Virus record (IMG/VR): IMGVR_UViG_3300003086_000045
Span: 1 to 64,000 of that record
Reading direction: 5' to 3' (one strand)
Origin: an uncultured virus (IMG/VR IMGVR_UViG_3300003086_000045)
Lineage: Duplodnaviria; Heunggongvirae; Uroviricota; Caudoviricetes; Demerecviridae
DNA length: 64,000 bases
In this document: in pieces, positions 4,537 through 25,042 of the stretch
Position numbering within the stretch: the first letter of the stretch is position 1
How the letters are laid out: each line of letters starts with the position of its first letter
Notes under the pieces: model-generated
Seen by the model: only the letters and a program-made list of their open reading frames with translations
What the model was told of the DNA's origin: nothing
Database searches by the model: none
Position numbers and translations under genes: made by a program

Positions 4537-5360
4537 AAAAATTTATATTTATTAAAAATTCTTCTAATGTATATGACTCTCAACTAGGAGTTATAGATAC
4601 ATTATCGGAGAAATATGGCCACGAGGAAATAAAAACTTGGGCTAAAATAGACTACTCCCTTCCCGTAAGAATTATAGGTAATAGTGCAACTATAAATTCA
4701 ACAGTATTAGATAGATCTTTTAATATTGATGAAACACTTATATTAGGTTCCTTAGGAAGCTATGACATGGTCATGGTAGCAGCACTAATTTCTAGTGAAG
4801 GCGCTATTTCTGAAGAGACGTTATTTGATAACTTTACACATTATGGTATACAGTCAGATGGGCAAGCAATAAATCTAGCTACAGGTGAAAAAGTTGCAAT
4901 CTCTGGGCATACTTGGTATGTAGTCAGTACTACTTTTAAAGTAGATACTATATTCTATATGGTAATAAATAATAATATTGCTAATATTGTGGAAGTTAAA
5001 CTAGATACTATGATGGAGGGTGTTGGAATACCTCATGAGTATGTCCCAGTATGTACTAAGTGTGGAACATTAAAGCATACTATATTTAAGCCAGTATTCT
5101 CTACAGGTAAAATGATTAATGGTAAAACATTATATGTTAATTCAGATACCCTTACAATAGAACTAACTACTGAAGAACCTATAGATATAACTGTAGAAGT
5201 AGATACTAATATGCAGTTTACTAAGACTGGTTTAACTTATACATTTAACATAGAAAGTACTCACAATTTTATTGAGTTTAGTATCCCTAACCCAGTATTT
5301 GAGTATTTTAGCAAAGAGGAAGAATTATCTTTCCAATATGAGGTAACTAAATATGGCTGA
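4533..5360 (+). CDS. Hypothetical protein with CxxC
   Basis: 275-aa ORF, coupled to both neighbours, contains CTKC. Confidence 0.55.
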   Translation: MKKFIFIKNSSNVYDSQLGVIDTLSEKYGHEEIKTWAKIDYSLPVRIIGNSATINSTVLDRSFNIDETLILGSLGSYDMVMVAALISSEGAISEETLFDNFTHYGIQSDGQAINLATGEKVAISGHTWYVVSTTFKVDTIFYMVINNNIANIVEVKLDTMMEGVGIPHEYVPVCTKCGTLKHTIFKPVFSTGKMINGKTLYVNSDTLTIELTTEEPIDITVEVDTNMQFTKTGLTYTFNIESTHNFIEFSIPNPVFEYFSKEEELSFQYEVTKYG

Positions 5361-5553
5361 TGAGAACACAACGAATAGTGGCGGAGACTCTATAGGAGTA
5401 ACTAGAGATGAAGGAGACATAGTATCTAGCACTGAGATGAAACAAATTATTACAGCAATGAAAACTGTATTAGATCATACACATATTTTTTATGATGACT
5501 ATAGTAGAAATTGTGATTGTAATTGTAACTGCACCAGGGGAACTTGGGGTTAA
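5353..5553 (+). CDS. Cys-rich small protein; putative radical SAM substrate (RiPP-like precursor)
   Basis: 66 aa, HTH motif, then C-terminal NCDCNCNCTRGTWG; GAGG RBS; directly upstream of 4 rSAM genes. Confidence 0.7.
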   Translation: MADENTTNSGGDSIGVTRDEGDIVSSTEMKQIITAMKTVLDHTHIFYDDYSRNCDCNCNCTRGTWG

Positions 5554-13536: not shown

Positions 13537-14538
13537 ATGGCTAAGATACATATTAGTGGCGGAGATCACGTTAATGGAGACGGATCCATACGGAATGTAA
13601 CCCATAATGGCTCTACTGTAGAAACTATAGTAGTAGACGGCGTTACTGTATGGAATAAGCCCGTAGATGGAGTTTTTTCTGGCTGGTCAGGCTGGAGTGC
13701 TTGTACTGTAGATTGTGGTGGAGGTACTCAAAACCGCACTAGAAACTGTGGTGGTACAAATCATGGAGGTTACGACTGCTCAGGCTCTACTTCAGAGTCT
13801 CAGGGTTGTAATACTCAAAGTTGTGCTCTATATGTAACAGCGTCAGGGGGGTCTATTTCAACATCAGGTGACTATAGAACACACACCTTTACAGGCTCAG
13901 GCTCATTTAATATTTCTGTAGCAGGCAATGCAGCAGGTTCTAATTCTATTGAATACCTTGTTGTCGGTGGTGGTGGTTACAGACAGCCTGGCAGATATGA
14001 TGCAACAGGAGCAGGTGGAGGTGGAGCAGCTACTTCAGGAACAACAACTAATTTCTCTGCTACATCTTATAATATTACAGTGGGTGGTACAGGTTCAAAC
14101 TCTTCTGCTTTGGGAATAACAGGCAATAAAGGAAATAATGGCATCGGCAGAGATTCTGGAGGATCTTCCGGTAATGGCAATAGCGGTGGCGCTGCCTATG
14201 GTGGTGGTGGAGGCTGTGGCGGGGGCGGTGGTAATAGTTCTACTATGGGCGGTTGTTATGGTTACCCCACAACTAGAGGTGGTAATGGAGGATCAGGTTG
14301 TTCTACTATTTTAGGTACTAAAGGCGGCGGAGGCGGCGGAGGCGGACACAAATGTGGCGCAGGTGGTTCAGGTGGTTCAGGCGGCGGTGGTAATGGTTGT
14401 GCTACAGGATGGAAAGGCGGCTGTGGACCAGGCTCAGGCGCTGTTAACTCAGGTGGTGGTGGCGGTGGCTCTAACGGTTCCTCAACTACTTACAATGGTG
14501 GTTCAGGCGTTGTGGCTCTTAGATATAAATATCAATAG
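13537..14538 (+). CDS. Fibre-tip adhesin with a thrombospondin type-1 repeat and a Gly-rich domain
   Basis: VDGVFSGWSGWSACTVDCGGGTQNRTRNC...CNTQSC, then HTFTGSG, YLVVGGGG, polyGly and GGSGVVALRY. Confidence 0.8.
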   Translation: MAKIHISGGDHVNGDGSIRNVTHNGSTVETIVVDGVTVWNKPVDGVFSGWSGWSACTVDCGGGTQNRTRNCGGTNHGGYDCSGSTSESQGCNTQSCALYVTASGGSISTSGDYRTHTFTGSGSFNISVAGNAAGSNSIEYLVVGGGGYRQPGRYDATGAGGGGAATSGTTTNFSATSYNITVGGTGSNSSALGITGNKGNNGIGRDSGGSSGNGNSGGAAYGGGGGCGGGGGNSSTMGGCYGYPTTRGGNGGSGCSTILGTKGGGGGGGGHKCGAGGSGGSGGGGNGCATGWKGGCGPGSGAVNSGGGGGGSNGSSTTYNGGSGVVALRYKYQ

Positions 14539-16786: not shown

Positions 16787-17500
16787 ATGCCTGAACAAGG
16801 ATTCCCCAATAACCCGGCTGTAAATGATACAACCATTCTTAATGGAATGACATATAAATTCAATGGGTCAGCTTGGGATAAAGTTGCTGGAGCTGTTTCA
16901 ACAGAAATTCCATTTGCAACTCAAGTAGACTTAGATGCTGCTGTTGCNNNNNNNNNNNNNNNNNNTGATATGACTAATGTAGGTACTTTACCTGCTAGCG
17001 TTGTCGCACAATTAAAAGGTGACATAGGAAATACAGGAGCTGCAGGTAGTAATGGTAGTGACGGGGCTACAGGAAGTACAGGAAGTACAGGAAGTACAGG
17101 TGCTGCAGGTAGTAATGGTAGTAATGGTAGTGACGGAGCTACAGGTAGTACAGGTTCTCAAGGTCCTATAGGAAATACAGGTGCTGCAGGTAGTAATGGT
17201 TCTACAGGAAGTCAGGGAGCCACAGGACCACAGGGACCTGGGTGGTCAACACAAGGAGGGCCTAGTTCAACTGTAACTTTAAGTAGTGGTCAAATTTGGA
17301 GCACACCAGGTGCAGGTTGGTATGCCATTGATTCAAATGCTAACGTATGGGACCGCCAGGCTGGGTACAGGAATATCAATGGTATCCTTAGTGGGGCGGC
17401 GGTTTCTTACGTAGGATACTTCCCTAATGGCACCGCAAATCCATGTATTGCTGCAATTAATAGTAATTATGGCATGTTTCGATATGTCAAGTTATCTTAG
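16787..17500 (+). CDS. Collagen-like fibre (cassette E), spans an assembly gap
   Basis: [10 protein letters not shown] anchor, long Gly-X-Y run, short C-terminal beta tip; 18 Ns at 16948-16965. Confidence 0.7.
16966..17056 (+). repeat. 91-bp repeat ([19 protein letters not shown]), identical at 17958-18048, with close copies at about 11553 and 13289
   Basis: Direct comparison of TGATATGACTAATGTAGGTACTTTACCTGCTAGCGTTGTCGC... Confidence 0.9.
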
Positions 17501-17736: not shown

Positions 17737-17911
17737 AAGGAGAGTAAACAATGCCTGAACAAGGATTCCCCAACAGCCCAGCTGTAAATGATACAACCAT
17801 TCTTAACGGAATGACATACAAATTTAATGGCTCAGCTTGGGACAAAGTTGCTGGAGCAATATCAACAGAAGTTCCATTTGCAACTCAAGTAGACTTAGAT
17901 GCTGCTGTTGC
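17737..17911 (+). repeat. Cassette-start repeat (RBS plus MPEQGFPN anchor), near-identical to 16773-16947 and similar to about 12935-13105
   Basis: Direct sequence comparison. Confidence 0.85.
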
Positions 17912-18738
17912 AGTGTCAACTACACAAACTGGCGATATTGCCGGCTTAACAACAGCTTGATATGACTAATGTAGGTACTTTACCTGCTAGCGTTGTCGCA
18001 CAATTAAAAGGTGACATAGGAAATACAGGAGCTGCAGGTAGTAATGGTTCTGATGGATCATTTGACGGTACTTTGAAGACTATTAATGGAGAGAACTTAA
18101 CTGGTTCTGGTGATATCACAGCTGGTGGGGGTTTTGCTAACCAAATAACTGTTCGTAGTTACGGTCGTGGTAATCATAGTGGTCCACAGGCAACTGCTCA
18201 GTCTGCTACATTCACACCAACAGGTACTACCATAATGGTAACAGGTACTGGCGGTGGTGGTAGCGGTCGTGGTGGTGTTACTGTTAGTGTGGCCTCTGGC
18301 GGGGGTGGCGGTGCTGCTGTGAAATCTCTGGTTATTGCAGTAACAGCGGGTGTACCGATATCTATAGTTTCTGGAAGAGGTGGTGCGCAGTCTGGTGGTA
18401 GTGCTAACGGTAAGGCTGGAGATCCAGCAACTATTACACAAGGAGGCTCTTTACTACTTAGTTTAGGTGCTGGAGCAGGCGGTGTTTATGGATCAGCTGC
18501 AGGGGGCACAGTGACAGGAACTCAAGTACCTTCACATAGTATTGGGGTTTTTAATGGAAACAGTGGAAGAACTGGACAGAGTGCTCGTAATAAATCGCCA
18601 GGGTTAGGTTATTTCGTAACTGTTAGTAATATAGATAATAGTTTTGAGGGGGGCAATACGGATGGATCCGGATCGGCTAATGCTGATGCTTCAGGTGCTC
18701 AACCCGGGTATGACGGGTTTTTACAAATACTATACTAA
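17751..18738 (+). CDS. Fibre with Gly-rich tip (cassette F), frame broken at about 17958
   Basis: ORFs 17751..17960 and 17962..18738 together match the layout of 12948 and 16787; LKTINGENLTGSGDIT and GGGGSG tip; the break lies at a repeat boundary. Confidence 0.65.
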
Positions 18739-19124: not shown

Positions 19125-20027
19125 ATGGGAAGAAAATTTAAGTTTGTAAAAAAGGACGGTACAGAACTATCTCCTAATAAACTGAAGAAATATATTAGAG
19201 GTGCTGATGGTACCTTAAGAGAAGCGTCTACTGCAGAAGTAGAAGCAGCTGCACTTACCGAACTGGTCTTTTCGGGGTCTAAATCAGATATCCGTAAAGG
19301 AGAAATGTCAGAACGTAATGTTACTGTACTACATAATAAAGTATTAGAAGTAGAAACATCTGTAGGTACTGAGGAAACTCGTGCAACAGCAGCAGAAGGA
19401 GTATTAACAGCTTCTATCTCTACTGAGGAATCAGCTAGAACTTCAGCTATTAATTCTACCAATGCTACATTAGCTGCGGAAACTACTGCTAGAACTAATG
19501 AAGATACAGCATTAGGCGGGAGACTTACTACTTTAGAAAATGCTCCTACTGTTGCTCCTATGACTAGTTCAACTATAGCTCCTACTTCTCCTACTGTTGG
19601 AGATACATGGTTCAGAACGGATACTAGTGTCTTGTATATGTATGTAAATGATGGGGATTCCCTTCAATGGATAGATATTAGTACAGACACATTAATGGCG
19701 GACTATGTTCCATATGCTACTTATACTCCAGCACAAGCTGCTCAAGATGTCCTAATTTCTAATTTATTAGCTGCTAATACAACTAATATAGCATCAATTG
19801 CTACTAATACTACTAATATTGCTACTGAGACTACTCGTGCTACAGCAGCAGAAGGTACTAATGCTACGGATATTAGTAACCTACAAAGTAGTAAGGCCAC
19901 AGTTTTTAATCAAAATACTGCACCTAGTACTGGGTTCTCCGCTGGAGATATATGGGTAGATACAGACGACGCTATTGTTTCAATAGCAGGCAATATTGCC
20001 GGATCACTAGAATGGATAGGAGTATAG
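19125..20027 (+). CDS. Fibre/adaptor protein (cassette G), paralog of the N-terminal half of 10858
   Basis: PNKLKKY...SG.KSD.R and GD.W..TDT.VLY.Y..DGDS.QWIDISTDTLMADYV shared with 10858. Confidence 0.75.
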   Translation: MGRKFKFVKKDGTELSPNKLKKYIRGADGTLREASTAEVEAAALTELVFSGSKSDIRKGEMSERNVTVLHNKVLEVETSVGTEETRATAAEGVLTASISTEESARTSAINSTNATLAAETTARTNEDTALGGRLTTLENAPTVAPMTSSTIAPTSPTVGDTWFRTDTSVLYMYVNDGDSLQWIDISTDTLMADYVPYATYTPAQAAQDVLISNLLAANTTNIASIATNTTNIATETTRATAAEGTNATDISNLQSSKATVFNQNTAPSTGFSAGDIWVDTDDAIVSIAGNIAGSLEWIGV

Positions 20028-20030
20028 GAG

Positions 20031-20396
20031 ATGGCATTTTTTAATTTTAGAAACTTTATTCAAAAGAAAGTTAGAACACATAAAAGTACATTTAATTTTG
20101 TAACAAAATCGGCAGATGATGTAGTAGACTTTGGAGAAACCGCGTATAAGTTTGATGGTAAACGGTGGCTTAAATCGGAAGATGAAGATGAGATAAGTAT
20201 TACTGATGCAGTAAATATAGATGACTCCACAACTTACGCGTCTGCTAAGGCTGTGAAGACTCTAAACGATAGTAAAGCTAATACAGATCTTAGCAACGTA
20301 TCTAGTCCATTACCAGCTGCTGTAGTTACTGAGTTAAAAGGTGATGTAGGTGCAACATTTGTTATGGATGGCACTACACTTAATATTACTACGTAA
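20031..20396 (+). CDS. Short fibre adaptor
   Basis: YKFDGKRW, ASAKAVKTLND, KANTDLSNV..PLPAAVVTELKGD, ends FVMDGTTLNITT. Confidence 0.7.
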   Translation: MAFFNFRNFIQKKVRTHKSTFNFVTKSADDVVDFGETAYKFDGKRWLKSEDEDEISITDAVNIDDSTTYASAKAVKTLNDSKANTDLSNVSSPLPAAVVTELKGDVGATFVMDGTTLNITT

Positions 20397-20405
20397 GGAA
20401 ACAAC

Positions 20406-21137
20406 ATGCCAACACAGAGTATAGATTTAACTAACGTAGCAGACGCTACTTTTAATGGCTCAACTGTTGAGCAGATTAACTTGAACGGTAGCGGCATTTG
20501 GACGAAGCCAGTAGTTTCGTTATGGAACATGTATTGGGATGAATCACGAGGAAATCCCGAAGTTGGTGGACCTGATGGTGTAGGTTTGTATAACCTTTCA
20601 CGCTCTGTAGCTGATACACCACATCCAATGTCAAATCGTTTCTATTCGCCAGATAGTAACGGGGCAATTGCTGACCGTGATGGAGTTGTCTATATAGGTC
20701 CGGCTAGAGAGATGGATCAAGGTACTGGAAGTATTGGTGAGGGAAATGAGTTGATACACGCTCAGTTTGTCTCAACAACTGTTCCTTTTTATGTAGCCCC
20801 GAACGCTAATCACTTTTATCATTACGGCGTATATCAGATTGCCCCTACAACTTACCACCATCCTGAGATTACTCCTTTTGCCACAGTGAGTCTTGCTGAT
20901 GGTATTCAGCCTATTGATGGGGGTGTTACAAGTGGGTCAGTTTCATGGCCCTGTACAGTATGTGTTGTGGTTGGTGCGTATGGTGTGTGCGACCAATATG
21001 CGGACACGACTTGTTACGGATCTTTTAGTATAACCCCAACTTTGCTAAGTATTGATGGACTACCTTTTTGGAGATTAGACCCTACAACTGGTCGGATGTA
21101 TTACAAGAACGCTGATTCATGGTGTTCAGTCGATTGA
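20406..21137 (+). CDS. Fibre-tip protein with a Cys-rich loop
   Basis: N-terminal FNGSTVEQINLNGSGIWTKPV resembles 13537; WPCTVCVVVGAYGVCDQYADTTCYG. Confidence 0.6.
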   Translation: MPTQSIDLTNVADATFNGSTVEQINLNGSGIWTKPVVSLWNMYWDESRGNPEVGGPDGVGLYNLSRSVADTPHPMSNRFYSPDSNGAIADRDGVVYIGPAREMDQGTGSIGEGNELIHAQFVSTTVPFYVAPNANHFYHYGVYQIAPTTYHHPEITPFATVSLADGIQPIDGGVTSGSVSWPCTVCVVVGAYGVCDQYADTTCYGSFSITPTLLSIDGLPFWRLDPTTGRMYYKNADSWCSVD

Positions 21138-21658
21138 TTCAAGTACAGGTAAATAATATATGCCGTAAGCATGAATATGGTAATAAAGATTTACAATACC
21201 AAGTAGGTCTTGATACTGTGTTGAAACATTTTGACATTCAAGGGGACATTTGTGGGGTATCCCACAATGGGAGCACTAAATATGATGTGTATTGTCTAGG
21301 TAAACCTACTGTGTCTCCAGTAGATTTAAGTCACATTATCACAGACCCTTTAGCGAAGGATTTAATAGCGTTTAAGATAGATTTAGAAGATAATTCTATT
21401 AGGACAAAGATATACCATATTGGCAATATATTTAAGATTCCATTTGATAAACCAATTGCGGGAACTGGTGTGTACGTAGGTGAGGACACTTTTACTGTGT
21501 ATTACCCAACAGACTATGAAGTACCTACCACTAACTACTACGATTTAATGACCCGTCAGGGCTTCTCAGCAACCACTTTTTATAGTGACGGCACAACTAG
21601 TGATGAGAGCATATATACTAATACAACTAAAGGGAGTGACACAGATGCCATTAACTAA
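21119..21658 (+). CDS. Hypothetical protein
   Basis: 179-aa ORF overlapping both neighbours. Confidence 0.5.
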   Translation: MVFSRLIQVQVNNICRKHEYGNKDLQYQVGLDTVLKHFDIQGDICGVSHNGSTKYDVYCLGKPTVSPVDLSHIITDPLAKDLIAFKIDLEDNSIRTKIYHIGNIFKIPFDKPIAGTGVYVGEDTFTVYYPTDYEVPTTNYYDLMTRQGFSATTFYSDGTTSDESIYTNTTKGSDTDAIN

Positions 21659-22241
21659 AATAACAAATAAAGATTACCTGAATCAACTAGTTTCTCTAGT
21701 ACCTCAGATATACAGCGAATACTTAGCTGCTGAAAGCACCTCTAATAGTACCAGTTTAAATGGTGGGATTCAAGGGTGGGACTTTACACAAGTGGTCATA
21801 GGGGGTTTGCCTTTAGCAAACCTTAACCTAATGCCAACACTTAAGACAGAGATAGAATCTTTTCCACCAAACATACACCCTGTAATGATATTAATATCTA
21901 CTATACGTGGTGGTGAATTATCTGAAGATAATGCACACAGTGAGGGATACCCAACAGGAATGCACAGATACCACATACCTCTAAAACTTTGCGAAGGTGT
22001 TGCACTGAATATCGAAGAATACGCAGATAGGTGGGAGCGATATACGTGGGAAGAAGGGTCTGTGTATGAATTTGAAAACCCTCAGAATACTCACTTTATT
22101 AGCCAGGGCGATGCACTAGAAGACAGAACTGTATTATTAGTTGACATTTTCGAAGATACACCGCCAACGCAAGAAGAACTAGATTTAATAAAACAGATAG
22201 CAGCCCCCTTCTTCAAGGATGGTGAAGATGTGTTTAGTTAG
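21645..22241 (+). CDS. Aspartyl/asparaginyl beta-hydroxylase-like 2OG oxygenase
   Basis: AHSE...RYHIPL...WEEG.VYEF....H....DRTVLLVD; start at MPLTK (GGGAG RBS). Confidence 0.72.
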   Translation: MPLTKITNKDYLNQLVSLVPQIYSEYLAAESTSNSTSLNGGIQGWDFTQVVIGGLPLANLNLMPTLKTEIESFPPNIHPVMILISTIRGGELSEDNAHSEGYPTGMHRYHIPLKLCEGVALNIEEYADRWERYTWEEGSVYEFENPQNTHFISQGDALEDRTVLLVDIFEDTPPTQEELDLIKQIAAPFFKDGEDVFS

Positions 22242-23139
22242 TTTCTCAAAAAACAAGACTTACACTTCAACACAAAAGATTGACAAGTTTGATGGCTCAC
22301 CTAAGTGGGGGTATATAGACATAACATCTAAATGTTCTCATGGATGTTCCTGGTGTTATGGGGGTTTTAATGAAGACTTAAATTCAGAGATGAGTATCAA
22401 TGACTTTAAGAATGTACTTGCCAAGTTAAAGGTGATGGGGTTACATCAGATTACTATTAGTGGCGGTGAACCCACTGAACACCCACACTTCTTAGAGATG
22501 GTAGCAGAGGCAACTAAAGACTTCATGGTGCATATTTGTTCGCATGGCGATTGGACCAAAGATTGGGCGAAAGACTTAGCAGTATTAGGTGTGAGTCAGA
22601 TTCAGTTTAACTATCAAGGCTCTAAACGACATGATGGTGTCCATAAAGTATTAGGATCTTACATGAAGCAAGTAAGAGCAATCAAGCAATCTATCGAGGC
22701 AGGACTAGAAACAGTCGGTACGGTGACTGTGGGTGCCTACAACTTAAAAGATGTAGATGTTATATTTAAAGAACTGTCAGATTTTGGCATTACTCGGTTA
22801 AGGGTATGGGAAACAGTTGGCAAGGGTAACAAGTGGCGTAAGGGTAAAGAAGCAAAAGAGATATTTGAATTATGTCAAGAGTCAGCATTTAAGTTAGGTT
22901 ACTTACACACACAATCCTATGATCCTGAGTTTAAAGCAGACAGTTTTGTATCTTGCCCTGCTATGAGCGAAATGCTTATGTATATTAATTCTGATTCTGA
23001 GTTGAGATTCTGTACTGCTATTGATATGCCTATTGCCTCATTTAAAGAAGATACATATCAAGTTATTCAAAACAAGTATTCAAAATTTATGAAAGACGTG
23101 GCAAGTAAAGGAAGTCGTTGTGTAGCTAGAGAAGAATGA
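22219..23139 (+). CDS. Radical SAM protein (twitch-type)
   Basis: CSHGCSWC, ISGGEPTEHP, C-terminal CPA...FC...C. Confidence 0.88.
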   Translation: MVKMCLVSFSKNKTYTSTQKIDKFDGSPKWGYIDITSKCSHGCSWCYGGFNEDLNSEMSINDFKNVLAKLKVMGLHQITISGGEPTEHPHFLEMVAEATKDFMVHICSHGDWTKDWAKDLAVLGVSQIQFNYQGSKRHDGVHKVLGSYMKQVRAIKQSIEAGLETVGTVTVGAYNLKDVDVIFKELSDFGITRLRVWETVGKGNKWRKGKEAKEIFELCQESAFKLGYLHTQSYDPEFKADSFVSCPAMSEMLMYINSDSELRFCTAIDMPIASFKEDTYQVIQNKYSKFMKDVASKGSRCVAREE

Positions 23140-23468
23140 TAGTAGCACTCACTTTTATTGTAATCGTTTCTACCCTATATACTTTGATTGGATGGGATAG
23201 AGTAGGCGATTGTATGAGGAAATGGTTCGATAAAGAGTATTGGACTGACTATAATATTATTGAGTTTCTAGCATGGTTTGCTAAAGCGTTAATAATAATA
23301 CCTGCATTGATATTTCATCAAGAGATATGGCAATTACATTTTGCAACATTAGTCACGTCATCATTACTCATTTGGGCATCCATGAGGAAGGGATTGCCTA
23401 CTCTGTTAGCCTTTAATACAATGTGGATTTTGTTGTCTTTGATTGTTATAACGAGGAATATAGCATGA
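23136..23468 (+). CDS. Small membrane protein
   Basis: 110 aa with 3-4 hydrophobic helices. Confidence 0.65.
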   Translation: MIVALTFIVIVSTLYTLIGWDRVGDCMRKWFDKEYWTDYNIIEFLAWFAKALIIIPALIFHQEIWQLHFATLVTSSLLIWASMRKGLPTLLAFNTMWILLSLIVITRNIA

Positions 23469-25042
23469 AGAATATCGTGATTGTAGGTGGTGGTGCAGCA
23501 GGATGGATGTGTGCATCTTACTTAGCATCTCGTAAGCAATATAATATTACTATTATTGAATCTCCGCAGGTGGGAAAAATAACGATTGGCGGTTCTACTA
23601 CTCCTTACTTAAAACGCTTCTTTGATGATATTGGTTACCCCGATGAATCCTACTGGATGCCTAAGTGTGACGGCACTTACAAGCTTGGCGTATTATATGA
23701 TGACTGGGATTATAAAGGCTCACGTTGGTGGAATAGTTTTGAAGTAGATGAAAACAAATTCCCCTACTGGAACAAACAGAGAGCTGAACAAGATTTACCC
23801 CGAGAAGATTTCTATAAGTCTTGTATATTCTCAGCACACGTTGGTATGAATGATGAAGGCAAGATTAATAAAACTAAAGATGGTAAAGCTGCTTATGTAT
23901 ACCGTGCTACTAAATCTTATGGTGGTTACGTTCAGACACACGCTTATAATTTAGATGCTGGAAAGCTTGGTGACTTTTTACAAGCACATTTCTCAGATAA
24001 GGTAACACATATTGAAGCACACATTGATAAGGTTATTCATAATGACGTGGGTGTCAGTGAGCTAATTGATGCTAATGGTGGAAAGCATACAGCAGACTTG
24101 TTTATCGATTGTACGGGCTTTAAACGCCTATTGATTGACAAAGTATGCGATACACCAAGAAAATCGCTAGAACCATATTTAACACACGATAAAGCTATGG
24201 TAATGCCAGTAGCTTATATTGATGCTCATAAAGAAATGAACCCACGTACTGGTGCAAAAGCAATGAGTGCTGGCTGGATGTGGAATATACCTCTATATAG
24301 TACGATGGTGAATGGCTATGTATATGACTCAAACTTCATAACTGATGAAGAGGTTGAAGCTGAAATGCGAGAAGTAATTGGTGATAGAGTTAAGGATATT
24401 AAGCCTTTTGTTATTCCTATGAATACCGGTCATTACTCAGAACCGTATTCAAAGAATGTAGTGGCTGTTGGCTTATCAGCAGGATTTATCGAACCGATGG
24501 AAGCCACACTAATAATGAATATCCAACACTCAGCTTATAATATTCATCAGGTATTGAATGAGAAAATGAGTAAGGATGTTTATAACGATATTACACGAGA
24601 GTCACTAGCCGACACACTAGACTTTCTATCAACTCAATATTATCTATCTCACAGAGAGGATTCAAAGTTTTGGAAGTCAAGAGGAAAAGCTACGCATATC
24701 ACTACACGTATGAAGTCTTGGCTGGAGACTTGTAAAAAGGCATTATTACCGCCTGTCAAAGATGTGTTATTTATTCCTAATTGTTGGATAGCTAAGTTAA
24801 TTGGTTACGGTTACTTTCCTTCTGGTGATGGTTTTGAAGCACAAGAGCCACAATCACTACCGACATTTAGTGGCACTAATTTTGAGCCACGCAATAAACA
24901 CAAGTACAAATATGTTGATGAGTTGAACGCTCAACAGCAGATGAATGAGATTCGCAACTTTGATACTAGTGTACTAATCAGCCAAAAAGAGTATTTAGAT
25001 AGATTTATTTATAAGTCATCTAAAGAGAAGTCCTCATCCTGA
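23465..25042 (+). CDS. Flavin-dependent tryptophan halogenase family protein
   Basis: IVIVGGGAAGW, C.GTYKLG, ADLFIDCTGF, GWMWNIPL (WxWxIP), GFIEPMEAT; start at MKNIV. Confidence 0.9.
   Translation: MKNIVIVGGGAAGWMCASYLASRKQYNITIIESPQVGKITIGGSTTPYLKRFFDDIGYPDESYWMPKCDGTYKLGVLYDDWDYKGSRWWNSFEVDENKFPYWNKQRAEQDLPREDFYKSCIFSAHVGMNDEGKINKTKDGKAAYVYRATKSYGGYVQTHAYNLDAGKLGDFLQAHFSDKVTHIEAHIDKVIHNDVGVSELIDANGGKHTADLFIDCTGFKRLLIDKVCDTPRKSLEPYLTHDKAMVMPVAYIDAHKEMNPRTGAKAMSAGWMWNIPLYSTMVNGYVYDSNFITDEEVEAEMREVIGDRVKDIKPFVIPMNTGHYSEPYSKNVVAVGLSAGFIEPMEATLIMNIQHSAYNIHQVLNEKMSKDVYNDITRESLADTLDFLSTQYYLSHREDSKFWKSRGKATHITTRMKSWLETCKKALLPPVKDVLFIPNCWIAKLIGYGYFPSGDGFEAQEPQSLPTFSGTNFEPRNKHKYKYVDELNAQQQMNEIRNFDTSVLISQKEYLDRFIYKSSKEKSSS

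What the first reader, a model, noticed from the sequence alone, without database searches (positions are those of the whole stretch)
20406..25042. Second tailoring cluster: Cys-loop tip, AspH hydroxylase, rSAM, membrane protein and halogenase
Seen: all genes overlap or abut. The tip has a 4-Cys loop (WPCTVCVVVGAYGVCDQYADTTCY) and many Trp/Tyr residues. The halogenase keeps GxGxxG, the catalytic-Lys region (TYKLG) and WxWxIP. Known: such halogenases chlorinate or brominate aromatic residues, including on peptides. Inference: the tip protein is the substrate for halogenation, hydroxylation and cross-linking.
Basis: partly seen in the sequence, partly recalled or inferred. Interest (0 to 1): 0.75.

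Follow-up and report, generated by a model that had tools for sequence, protein, structure and literature searches.

The report
Phage fibre-tip prenylation and halogenation cassette
A deep-sea bacterial virus carries, right behind the gene for a swappable tail-fibre tip, a block of enzymes led by a previously unnoticed miniature prenyl-transferring enzyme, and the block most likely attaches a lipid and a halogen to an exposed tyrosine loop of that tip.

Summary
The six coupled genes are real. Its model (pLDDT 91) is a ten-stranded barrel whose closest structures are ABBA prenyltransferases (33 of 36 listed Foldseek rows, best E 0.02), with conserved Lys/Tyr pairs. It follows a cap-bearing tip in 12 of 12 distinct cassettes, and in 3 of them a farnesyl-diphosphate synthase comes next. 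A second small barrel family, closest to the peptide prenyltransferases PagF/LimF (E 7e-4), fills the same slot behind glycine-rich tips; 13 of 14 halogenases of this phage clade sit behind one or the other.

The four-Cys loop is not the shared target: it is absent where the radical SAM gene is present in relatives. A Gln-Tyr-Gly turn recurs instead (17 of 52 tips, about 4 expected).

Best reading (0.55, no step shown): the tip is prenylated, probably at Tyr, then halogenated, hydroxylated and radical-tailored. Main rival: a small-molecule pathway. This scan noted radical-SAM/halogenase tip cassettes on other phages; none of those notes names a prenyltransferase, and I found no paper describing one.

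The parts
19125..20027 (+). Fibre segment A, 300 aa (upstream of the finding)
   Evidence: PHROG tail fibre and L-shaped fibre assembly hits, E 3e-4 and 2e-3
20031..20396 (+). Fibre segment B, 121 aa; its last 15 residues (20349..20393) are the conserved fibre end that precedes cap-bearing tips
   Evidence: PHROG tail fibre E 6e-4; the same end was picked up before 11 of the 12 tips by script, and L023 has a variant of it
20406..21137 (+). Tip protein, 243 aa: conserved ~35-residue N-terminal cap plus exchangeable C-terminal domain
   Evidence: Cap 77% mean column identity in 12 tips; C-domain alignable by BLAST to only 1 of 11 (L024, 26%); no Pfam, PHROG or NCBIfam hit; that it docks on the fibre is inferred from context
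20946..21017 (+). Four-Cys, Tyr-bearing loop (C183, C186, C195, C203; Y192 in GAYG, Y198 in DQYA); candidate modified site
   Evidence: Q197 is invariant and aligns with QYG of related tips in a 9-sequence alignment
21134..21658 (+).
   Evidence: Model pLDDT 90.7 with ten strands; fold searches; K92 and Y94 invariant, R11, K12, E14, T121, Y123, T148, Y161 at 90% or more in 44 sequences
21645..22241 (+). AspH-type Fe/2OG hydroxylase-like protein, 198 aa; optional in the cassette
   Evidence: Pfam 21.5 bits (cut-off 22.6); homologue in L020 passes with 37.3 bits; H98, R108, H110, H150, R161, D167 invariant in 8
22228..23139 (+). Radical SAM enzyme with three conserved C-terminal cysteines (Twitch-like), 303 aa, no N-terminal peptide-recognition domain
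   Evidence: Pfam 68 bits; best PDB hit SkfB E 2e-16 from query residue 30 against SkfB 113; CxxxCxxC and C243, C262, C298 invariant in 13
23136..23468 (+). Small hydrophobic membrane protein, 110 aa; slot filled by DUF6552 in 8 other cassettes
   Evidence: No Pfam, PHROG or NCBIfam family; 83-84% identical in 3 relatives; gene table
23465..25042 (+). Flavin-dependent halogenase of the tryptophan-halogenase family, 525 aa, member of a cassette-specific phage clade
   Evidence: Pfam 304 bits; K73 and E346 invariant in 38; clade SH-aLRT 100 in a quick tree

Best explanation
An exchangeable tail-fibre tip module with its own tailoring enzymes. The tip docks by its conserved N-terminal cap on the conserved C-terminal end of the fibre (inferred). 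In the infected cell gene X, a stripped-down ABBA-type barrel, binds an allylic diphosphate with its Lys/Arg and Tyr residues and alkylates an aromatic side chain at an exposed turn of the tip, most likely the Tyr of a Q-Y-G/A turn (Y198, or Y192, here); fold and conserved residues are supported, reaction and site are inferred. The halogenase, the radical SAM enzyme and the optional AspH-like hydroxylase then decorate that residue, its prenyl group or neighbouring residues. They recognise a local feature rather than a tip fold, which is why near-identical enzymes serve unrelated tips (inferred). The donor comes from the host here; some relatives bring their own polyprenyl synthase. The likely purpose is a hydrophobic, halogenated ligand at the receptor-binding end that tunes adsorption (speculative). 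The membrane protein probably serves the halogenase (substrate, halide or product passage); unresolved.
For: Shown: (a) X model, ten strands, pLDDT 90.7; 33 of 36 listed Foldseek rows are ABBA prenyltransferases (best E 0.02, prob 0.94); VIA aligns 143-157 of 174 residues to ABBA enzymes against about 106-112 to the best other barrels. (b) Basic residues at 12, 81, 92 in 44 of 44 and at 11 in 42 of 44; Tyr94 44 of 44, Tyr123 43, Tyr161 40; acidic 14 in 44 of 44, at 27% mean column identity. The sixth strand reads R90-x-K92-x-Y94, the spacing of FgaPT2 R257/K259/Y261 (PMC6748273, passages). (c) X is the next gene after a cap-bearing tip in 12 of 12 distinct cassettes; a polyprenyl synthase (Pfam 141.8 bits) follows X in 3 of the 11 whose next gene is visible. 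(d) A second family (Z, about 200 aa) sits behind glycine-rich tips in 7 cassettes; its top structural hits are PagF, LimF and PirF (E 6.6e-4, prob 1.0). (e) 13 of 14 halogenases of the clade lie downstream of X or Z; 0 of 71 other viral and 0 of 80 cellular halogenase loci score on either profile within 6 kb. (f) QY[GA] in 17 of 52 tips (4.1 expected) and 11 of 25 clusters (3.8 expected); QF[GA] 0, QW[GA] 2; no enrichment in 153 similar-composition ORFs of other phages, 10 against 16.2; absent from 2 of 2 cap-bearing tips with no X. (g) dN/dS 0.05-0.43 for all five downstream genes. (h) Halogenases of Syn9 and S-RIM44 also lie just behind tail-fibre genes.
Against: No activity, substrate or modified virion is shown. 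The fold match is modest: no Foldseek E under 0.001 for X, best Z 7.9, tied with a non-enzyme barrel (RsfG), and the tool warns that Z under 8 can be a common arrangement. X lacks most outer helices (two helices of 4 or more residues) and has no sequence link to ABBA families. The residue equivalence rests on strand counting, not on a superposition. The Tyr motif was spotted after seeing the data; on 33 held-out tips it is only 6 against 2.6 (p about 0.05), several carriers are homologous to each other, 4 of 12 X-adjacent tips lack it, and D/N-x-x-G is a common hairpin turn (recalled). The window's nearest halogenase (97%) and radical SAM (92%) belong to L002, whose tip is unrelated; a shared small molecule would explain that equally well. 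A membrane protein and, in L018/L021, a nucleoside-deoxyribosyltransferase-like gene (25.7 bits, under cut-off) fit small-molecule chemistry. The halogenase breaks the Fx.Px.Sx.G motif that PMC8407142 (passages) says is found, with charged variants, in all active enzymes. L030 has the radical SAM and halogenase but no detected X or Z.
Confidence: 0.55

Rival explanations
1. A small-molecule pathway that hitch-hikes in the fibre island: X prenylates a free aromatic (Trp, Tyr, a nucleobase or a phenol), the halogenase, radical SAM enzyme and hydroxylase finish it, and the membrane protein moves it. The product could act on the host, on competitors or on co-infecting phages, or load non-covalently on the tip.
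For: Polyprenyl synthase plus a nucleoside-deoxyribosyltransferase-like gene replace the radical SAM gene in L018 and L021. A membrane gene is present in 13 of the 16 cassettes that reach the halogenase. Near-identical enzymes serve unrelated tips. Best PDB hits of the halogenase are free-Trp halogenases, and X's top Foldseek hits FamD1 and AmbP3 act on small indoles. PMC2938197 (passages) read cyanophage halogenase-dioxygenase arrays as secondary-metabolite clusters.
Against: It does not explain why a barrel gene of either family is always the first enzyme behind the tip (19 of 20 cassettes), why X is absent behind 2 of 2 other cap-bearing tips, or why a Tyr turn is enriched in the tips. No scaffold-building gene is present. 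A barrel lacking its lid helices suits a bulky protein substrate (inference).
Confidence: 0.2
2. X and Z are non-catalytic ligand-binding barrels or tip-assembly chaperones, and the downstream enzymes act on something else, for example the host envelope or receptor (superinfection exclusion) or other virion proteins.
For: The position right after a tip is the usual place of fibre-assembly chaperones (recalled; see the 'tail fiber assembly' labels). Calycin-like and other barrels score Z 6-8 as well. The halogenase has lost the loop Glu in the 17 nearest homologues and the halide-site Gly in most of the clade.
Against: A chaperone of folds that cannot be aligned would not be expected to keep one invariant set of Lys/Tyr/Glu residues on alternating strand positions across 44 sequences. 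The polyprenyl synthase next to X (3 cassettes) points to a prenyl donor. Catalytic K73 and E346 of the halogenase are invariant.
Confidence: 0.15
3. One reading: the radical SAM enzyme cross-links the four-Cys loop through thioether bridges, as SkfB does, and the halogenase works on the tip's Trp residues.
For: Best PDB and NCBIfam matches are SkfB (E 2e-16 and 3e-17); three C-terminal cysteines are invariant; the loop has four Cys and the tip six Trp.
Against: 0 of 7 related tips upstream of this radical SAM gene have Cys flanking the Tyr loop (L003's tip has no Cys after the cap), while L018 and L024, without the gene, do. The SkfB family score is 62.5 against a cut-off of 300, and SkfB's first 112 residues have no counterpart. 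Trp turns are not enriched in these tips. The Cys pairs are more simply disulfide staples.
Confidence: 0.1

Closest known systems
Cyanobactin-type peptide prenyltransferases PagF, PirF, LimF, KgpF, PatF, DciF, and other ABBA enzymes (FamD1, AmbP1/3, NphB, EpzP, FgaPT2, TleC)
   Same: Predicted ten-stranded antiparallel barrel that ranks these first by Foldseek for both X and Z; conserved Lys/Arg and Tyr on the strands, as described for the diphosphate site and tyrosine shield (PMC7973389, PMC6748273, PMC4786772, passages); no DDxxD motif in the X sequence. PagF O-prenylates peptide Tyr (PMC7973389).
   Different: About 170-200 residues instead of about 300, most outer helices gone, no sequence similarity, phage-encoded, and the proposed substrate is a folded virion protein rather than a short peptide or small molecule.
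Cyanophage tryptophan-halogenase and dioxygenase arrays (Syn9, S-RIM44, P-SSM2) and VirX1 of Syn10
   Same: Phage flavin-dependent halogenase with Fe/2OG oxygenases, placed behind tail-fibre genes; VirX1 matches at E 1e-50. Arrays described in PMC2938197 and prnA noted in PMC2984593 (passages).
   Different: Only about 28% identical to the Syn9/Syn10 enzymes; separate clade; accompanied by a prenyltransferase-like barrel and a Twitch-like radical SAM enzyme. Those papers proposed secondary metabolites or antibiotic protection, not virion tailoring.
SkfB-type radical SAM/Twitch maturases
   Same: CxxxCxxC, GGEP and three C-terminal cysteines; SkfB is the best solved match.
   Different: No N-terminal recognition domain, far under the family cut-off, no Cys-rich short precursor that travels with it.
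T-even gp38 tip adhesins (S16, PP01)
   Same: A separate, exchangeable protein at the fibre end with a conserved docking N-terminus; the glycine-rich tips of L002 and L031-L036 resemble the polyglycine type (recalled; PMC12892980 seen as search listing only).
   Different: No sequence link tested or found; gp38 has no known tailoring enzymes (recalled).

Membership tests
ABBA (PT-barrel) prenyltransferases | Ten antiparallel strands closing a barrel | tested here: met
   Ten strands in a pLDDT 90.7 model; 143-157 residues aligned over the whole barrel of EpzP, PagF, DciF, NphB, rmsd 3.8-4.7. Predicted, not solved.
ABBA (PT-barrel) prenyltransferases | Five alpha-beta-beta-alpha repeats with an outer ring of helices, about 300 residues | tested here: not met
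   174 residues, two helices of four or more residues. X is therefore described as ABBA-like, not filed as a family member.
ABBA (PT-barrel) prenyltransferases | Arg/Lys diphosphate cage plus tyrosine shield inside the barrel, no DDxxD | tested here: inconclusive
ABBA (PT-barrel) prenyltransferases | Sequence match to Pfam or NCBIfam ABBA models or PDB members | tested here: not met
   No hit; hhalign to one PF11468 member, E 0.82.
ABBA (PT-barrel) prenyltransferases | Prenyl transfer activity | not testable with these tools
   Needs assay.
Flavin-dependent tryptophan-halogenase family | Pfam PF04820, GxGxxG, catalytic Lys and Glu, WxWxIP | tested here: met
   304 bits; motifs aligned to solved enzymes; K73, E346, W271, W273 invariant in 38.
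Flavin-dependent tryptophan-halogenase family | Fx.Px.Sx.G tunnel motif (PMC8407142) | tested here: not met
   FIEPMEATL; Leu at the Gly position in 36 of the 43 nearest homologues. Halide preference or activity may differ.
Flavin-dependent tryptophan-halogenase family | Halogenation of free or peptide-bound substrate | not testable with these tools
   Needs assay with a flavin reductase; none was recognised in the cassette.
AspH / LpxO-type Fe/2OG beta-hydroxylases | Pfam PF05118 cut-off and His-x-acid...His, Arg-x-His, Arg pattern | tested here: inconclusive
   21.5 of 22.6 bits here, 37.3 for the 41% identical L020 homologue; H98-x-E100, R108-x-H110, H150, R161 present; the role of these residues is recalled.
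SkfB sactipeptide maturases | Family score, N-terminal recognition domain, Cys-bearing short precursor | tested here: not met
   62.5 against 300; match begins at SkfB 113; Cys loop does not travel with the gene.
RiPP gene clusters (cyanobactin type) | Short leader-core precursor, protease, exporter | tested here: not met
   The candidate substrate is 243 aa with a fibre-docking cap; no protease among the six genes. It works like RiPP tailoring but is not a RiPP cluster.
gp38-type fibre-tip adhesins | Physical docking on the fibre C-terminus and receptor binding | not tested
   Only the gene-order coupling of fibre end and cap was shown.

The most novel reading that the evidence does not exclude
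Marine phages of several unrelated morphotypes lipidate their own receptor-binding protein: a phage-born family of minimal ABBA prenyltransferases puts an isoprenoid on a Tyr at the apex of the tip, and a mix-and-match set of halogenase, radical SAM, hydroxylase and polyprenyl-synthase genes varies the resulting prenyl-halotyrosine. Host range would then be set partly by non-genetically encoded chemistry, and X would be the smallest prenyltransferase barrel known to me and one that accepts folded proteins.
Probability: 0.4. Interest if true: 0.92.

Novelty: categorically new. Interest (0 to 1): 0.8.

Why it matters
If true, it gives a function to the halogenases that have sat unexplained beside cyanophage and pelagiphage fibre genes, and adds lipidation by a virus-encoded enzyme to the chemistry of virus particles. 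It would mean that receptor specificity cannot be read from tip sequence alone for these phages. A 170-residue prenyltransferase that modifies a short Tyr turn on unrelated folded proteins, and a tip-agnostic halogenase, would also be useful protein-labelling tools. Under the small-molecule reading it would still be an undescribed phage prenyl/halogen pathway.

Tried and rejected
Complex prediction of tip residues 36-243 with X: no answer (score 0.00); not evidence either way. ESM Atlas: no usable hit for X, and only sub-0.35 TM rows for the tip, whose Atlas model has pLDDT 0.35. Pfam Csm4_C hit on X (22 bits, cut-off 25.9): rejected as chance, since it covers 33 residues. BFVD search of X: best rows are uncharacterised phage proteins at E 1e-3, TM 0.58-0.60; not followed up. 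X and Z have no tblastn match among 50,697 phage records. X against Z by hhalign: E 0.0018 but probability 15%, so common ancestry is only suggested. L030's 238-aa gene: no similarity to X or Z; it was not folded. The 110-aa membrane protein against DUF6552: no similarity. Promoter and terminator scan: 26 sites against 27.6 expected, 3 against 5.2, nothing usable. No RNA holder listed. Contig depths and the short-sided joints were not used. The broader patterns [DN]xYG[NQ] (8 against 0.6 on held-out tips) were defined after seeing those tips and several hits come from one cluster, so I do not lean on them. PMC11021962 (passages) says nothing on the FAD-loop Glu. PF11991 found in 0 of 5 genomes. 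The careful tree did not finish; the quick tree is reported. A viral scan with the 44-sequence X alignment could not run, so neighbourhoods of the distant X homologues (P0028-P0064) are unknown.
Full report
Setting. The window is the first 64 kb of a 77,901-base virus record. It holds ribonucleotide reductase and ThyX genes and a replication block that I read by eye as T5-like. DsrA-, DsrC- and Isc-like genes (names recalled, not scanned) suggest a sulfur-oxidising gammaproteobacterial host. Bases 155-25042 are a + strand run of several fibre/tip modules; the finding is the last. Contigs of a study not marked as a possible source cover 20142-22638 and 22687-25039 with 8 and 2 differences (run X5), so the cassette is not an assembly artefact.

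Observation. All junctions from tip to halogenase overlap by 4 or 14 nt. The quoted Cys loop and halogenase motifs are present. Trp+Tyr in the tip is 8.2%, rank 9 of 75 ORFs.

Architecture in relatives. Scans with the halogenase, X and the tip cap gave, after removing copies of the window and duplicates (L004, L005, L015, L019, L027-L029, L191), 19 other cassettes. In 12 of 12 X cassettes, the window included, X is the next gene after a tip with a conserved 35-residue cap, itself after a fibre ending in a conserved 15-residue stretch. The tip's remainder is exchanged: only 1 of 11 aligns with the window's by BLAST, while X stays 41-69% identical. After X comes the radical SAM gene in 8 (in 2 with the AspH-like gene between), a polyprenyl synthase in 3 (Pfam 141.8 bits; followed by a nucleoside-deoxyribosyltransferase-like gene in the 2 that extend so far), and a contig end in 1. 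All 8 that reach far enough have the halogenase. Seven further cassettes (L002, L031-L036) have a glycine-rich tip, a 140-aa gene, a 200-aa gene Z, then the same radical SAM and halogenase. L030 has a repeat-type tip and neither X nor Z detectably. Flanking genes look podovirus-like in L003, L016 and L019 and T4-like in L034 and L035 (by eye), so the module moves between phage groups. All five downstream genes are under purifying selection (dN/dS 0.05-0.43; one comparison saturated).

Gene X. No family or sequence hit. The model from 27 sequences has pLDDT 90.7, ten strands and two helices. Foldseek lists ABBA prenyltransferases in 33 of 36 rows, best E 0.02. VIA gives Z 7.9-6.1 with 143-157 residues aligned to EpzP, PagF, DciF, CymD and NphB, tied with RsfG, which aligns 112. 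That is suggestive, not decisive. Three independent lines add weight. First, in 44 homologues (27% mean column identity) the conserved residues are K12, K81, K92, R11, E14, Y94, Y123, Y161, T121 and T148 in alternating strand positions, the kind of Lys/Arg and Tyr set described for the diphosphate site of ABBA enzymes (PMC7973389, PMC6748273, PMC4786772; passages). Second, the polyprenyl synthase neighbour. Third, Z, modelled separately (pLDDT 76.5), hits PagF, LimF and PirF first (3 rows at E 0.001 or below). X lacks the helical ring and any sequence link, so I call it ABBA-like and do not file it in the family.

Which site. The four-Cys loop is not shared: none of 7 related tips upstream of the radical SAM gene has Cys around its Tyr loop, whereas L018 and L024, without that gene, do. 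What recurs is Gln-Tyr-Gly/Ala: 8 of 12 X-adjacent tips, 0 of 2 cap-bearing tips without X (L190 and window 13537..14538). Among 52 cap-bearing proteins (neighbours unknown for most) it is in 17 (4.1 expected) and in 11 of 25 clusters (3.8), with no excess of the Phe or Trp versions and no excess in other phages' proteins. I noticed the motif in the data, and on 33 held-out tips the excess is 6 against 2.6 (p about 0.05), so this is a lead. In the window it maps to D196-Q197-Y198-A199, with a second turn G190-A-Y192-G.

Halogenase. Best solved matches are Trp halogenases; VirX1 matches at E 1e-50. K73 and E346 are invariant. The loop Glu is lost in the 17 nearest homologues and the Gly of the Fx.Px.Sx.G motif is Leu in 36 of 43, which departs from the motif in PMC8407142 (passages). 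The 14 cassette enzymes form one clade (SH-aLRT 100, quick tree of 45 rows: these 14, 15 of the 71 other viral and 16 of the 80 cellular loci). The best cellular match among the 80 loci kept was 33%. 13 of the 14 lie behind X or Z (L005 by identity with L018); none of 71 other viral or 80 cellular loci scored on those profiles. The window's enzyme is 97% identical to that of L002, whose tip is unrelated, so it reads a local feature or a small molecule, not a fold.

Other genes. The radical SAM enzyme keeps CxxxCxxC and three C-terminal Cys in 13 of 13; SkfB is its nearest structure, without the N-terminal part and far under the family cut-off. Its reaction is open; its alternation with the polyprenyl synthase pair hints that it acts on the donor or the adduct (inference). 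The AspH-like protein keeps the metal and 2OG pattern in 8 of 8 and is optional. The membrane slot holds this 110-aa family in 4 cassettes, DUF6552 in 8, another membrane protein in L035 and nothing in 3; a homologue also lies in the unrelated halogenase cluster of L044. No polyprenyl synthase was found in G000 with the L018 query.

Mechanism and rivals. Shown: gene order, exchange of tips, selection, predicted folds, conserved residues, motif counts. Inferred: docking of the tip, prenyl transfer, the Tyr site, the order of later steps, the purpose.

Known work. PMC2938197 (passages) described cyanophage halogenase-dioxygenase arrays as metabolite clusters and proposed collagen-like or tail-collar proteins as substrates of bacterial hydroxylase-sulfotransferase sets; its supplement, which I did not open, may list further phage neighbourhoods. 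PMC2984593 and PMC12801897 (passages) note phage halogenase or radical SAM genes without this reading. Syn9 and S-RIM44 carry their halogenases behind fibre genes. Searches for a phage ABBA prenyltransferase or for halogenated or prenylated fibres (listings only) returned nothing that describes it; most subscription papers are outside the library, and the original VirX1 paper was seen only through a review. Four earlier notes of this scan describe radical-SAM or halogenase tip cassettes on other genomes; look-ups for prenyltransferase wording or for these sequences returned none.

Verdict. A real, mobile tip-plus-enzymes module whose key member is an undescribed miniature prenyltransferase-like family. 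Interest 0.8. The class 'categorically new' holds under the first two readings (0.75 together) and would fall under the third.

Noticed in passing
window:5353-10264: A 66-aa Cys/Asn-rich ORF (5353..5553) followed by three radical SAM genes and a 356-aa gene among fibre genes: a separate tip-linked cassette of the Cys-rich type.
   Followed up: no
window:13537-16694: Tip with a related N-terminal cap, a thrombospondin-1 domain (Pfam 39 bits) and a glycine-rich part, followed by phrog_7759, a cupin-like gene, a weak WelO5/2OG-like gene and phrog_17480; no X-type gene.
   Followed up: partly
window:2133-3591: Glycine-rich tip of the same kind as in L002 and L031-L036 but with no Z gene behind it; its C-terminal loops carry mostly Phe, where the Z-adjacent tips carry Tyr and Trp (one case, by eye).
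   Followed up: partly
window:16787-18738: A run of N inside 16787..17500 and an apparent frame break between 17751..17960 and 17962..18738 in near-repeated fibre genes; possibly assembly faults.
   Followed up: no
G000:C1:70689-74336 and window:51732-52019: DsrA-like, two DsrC/TusE-like, IscU-like, ferredoxin, ErpA/IscA-like and glutaredoxin-like genes (named by eye); the Fe-S assembly genes could supply the phage's four radical SAM enzymes.
   Followed up: no
window:36927-37898: SbmA/BacA-like membrane transporter gene among replication genes (by eye).
   Followed up: no
L044:6919-10149: Homologue of the 110-aa membrane protein at the end of an unrelated halogenase-oxygenase cluster, followed by a permease-like and a TonB-receptor-like gene (by eye).
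   Followed up: partly
L020:6138-7004 and L032:675-1763: The two cassettes with the closest AspH-like genes have unrelated tips that both contain PYAP; may be chance.
   Followed up: no
L030:1575-4165: Repeat-type tip followed by a 284-aa helical gene and a 238-aa gene in the prenyltransferase slot; candidate third barrel family, not folded.
   Followed up: partly
window:21134-21658 (fold search): Uncharacterised phage proteins A0A6J7WA07 and A0A6J7WQW0 (TM about 0.6) and, weakly, cyanophage proteins such as A0A0E3HAV3 resemble the X model; cultured cyanophages may hold related barrels.
   Followed up: no
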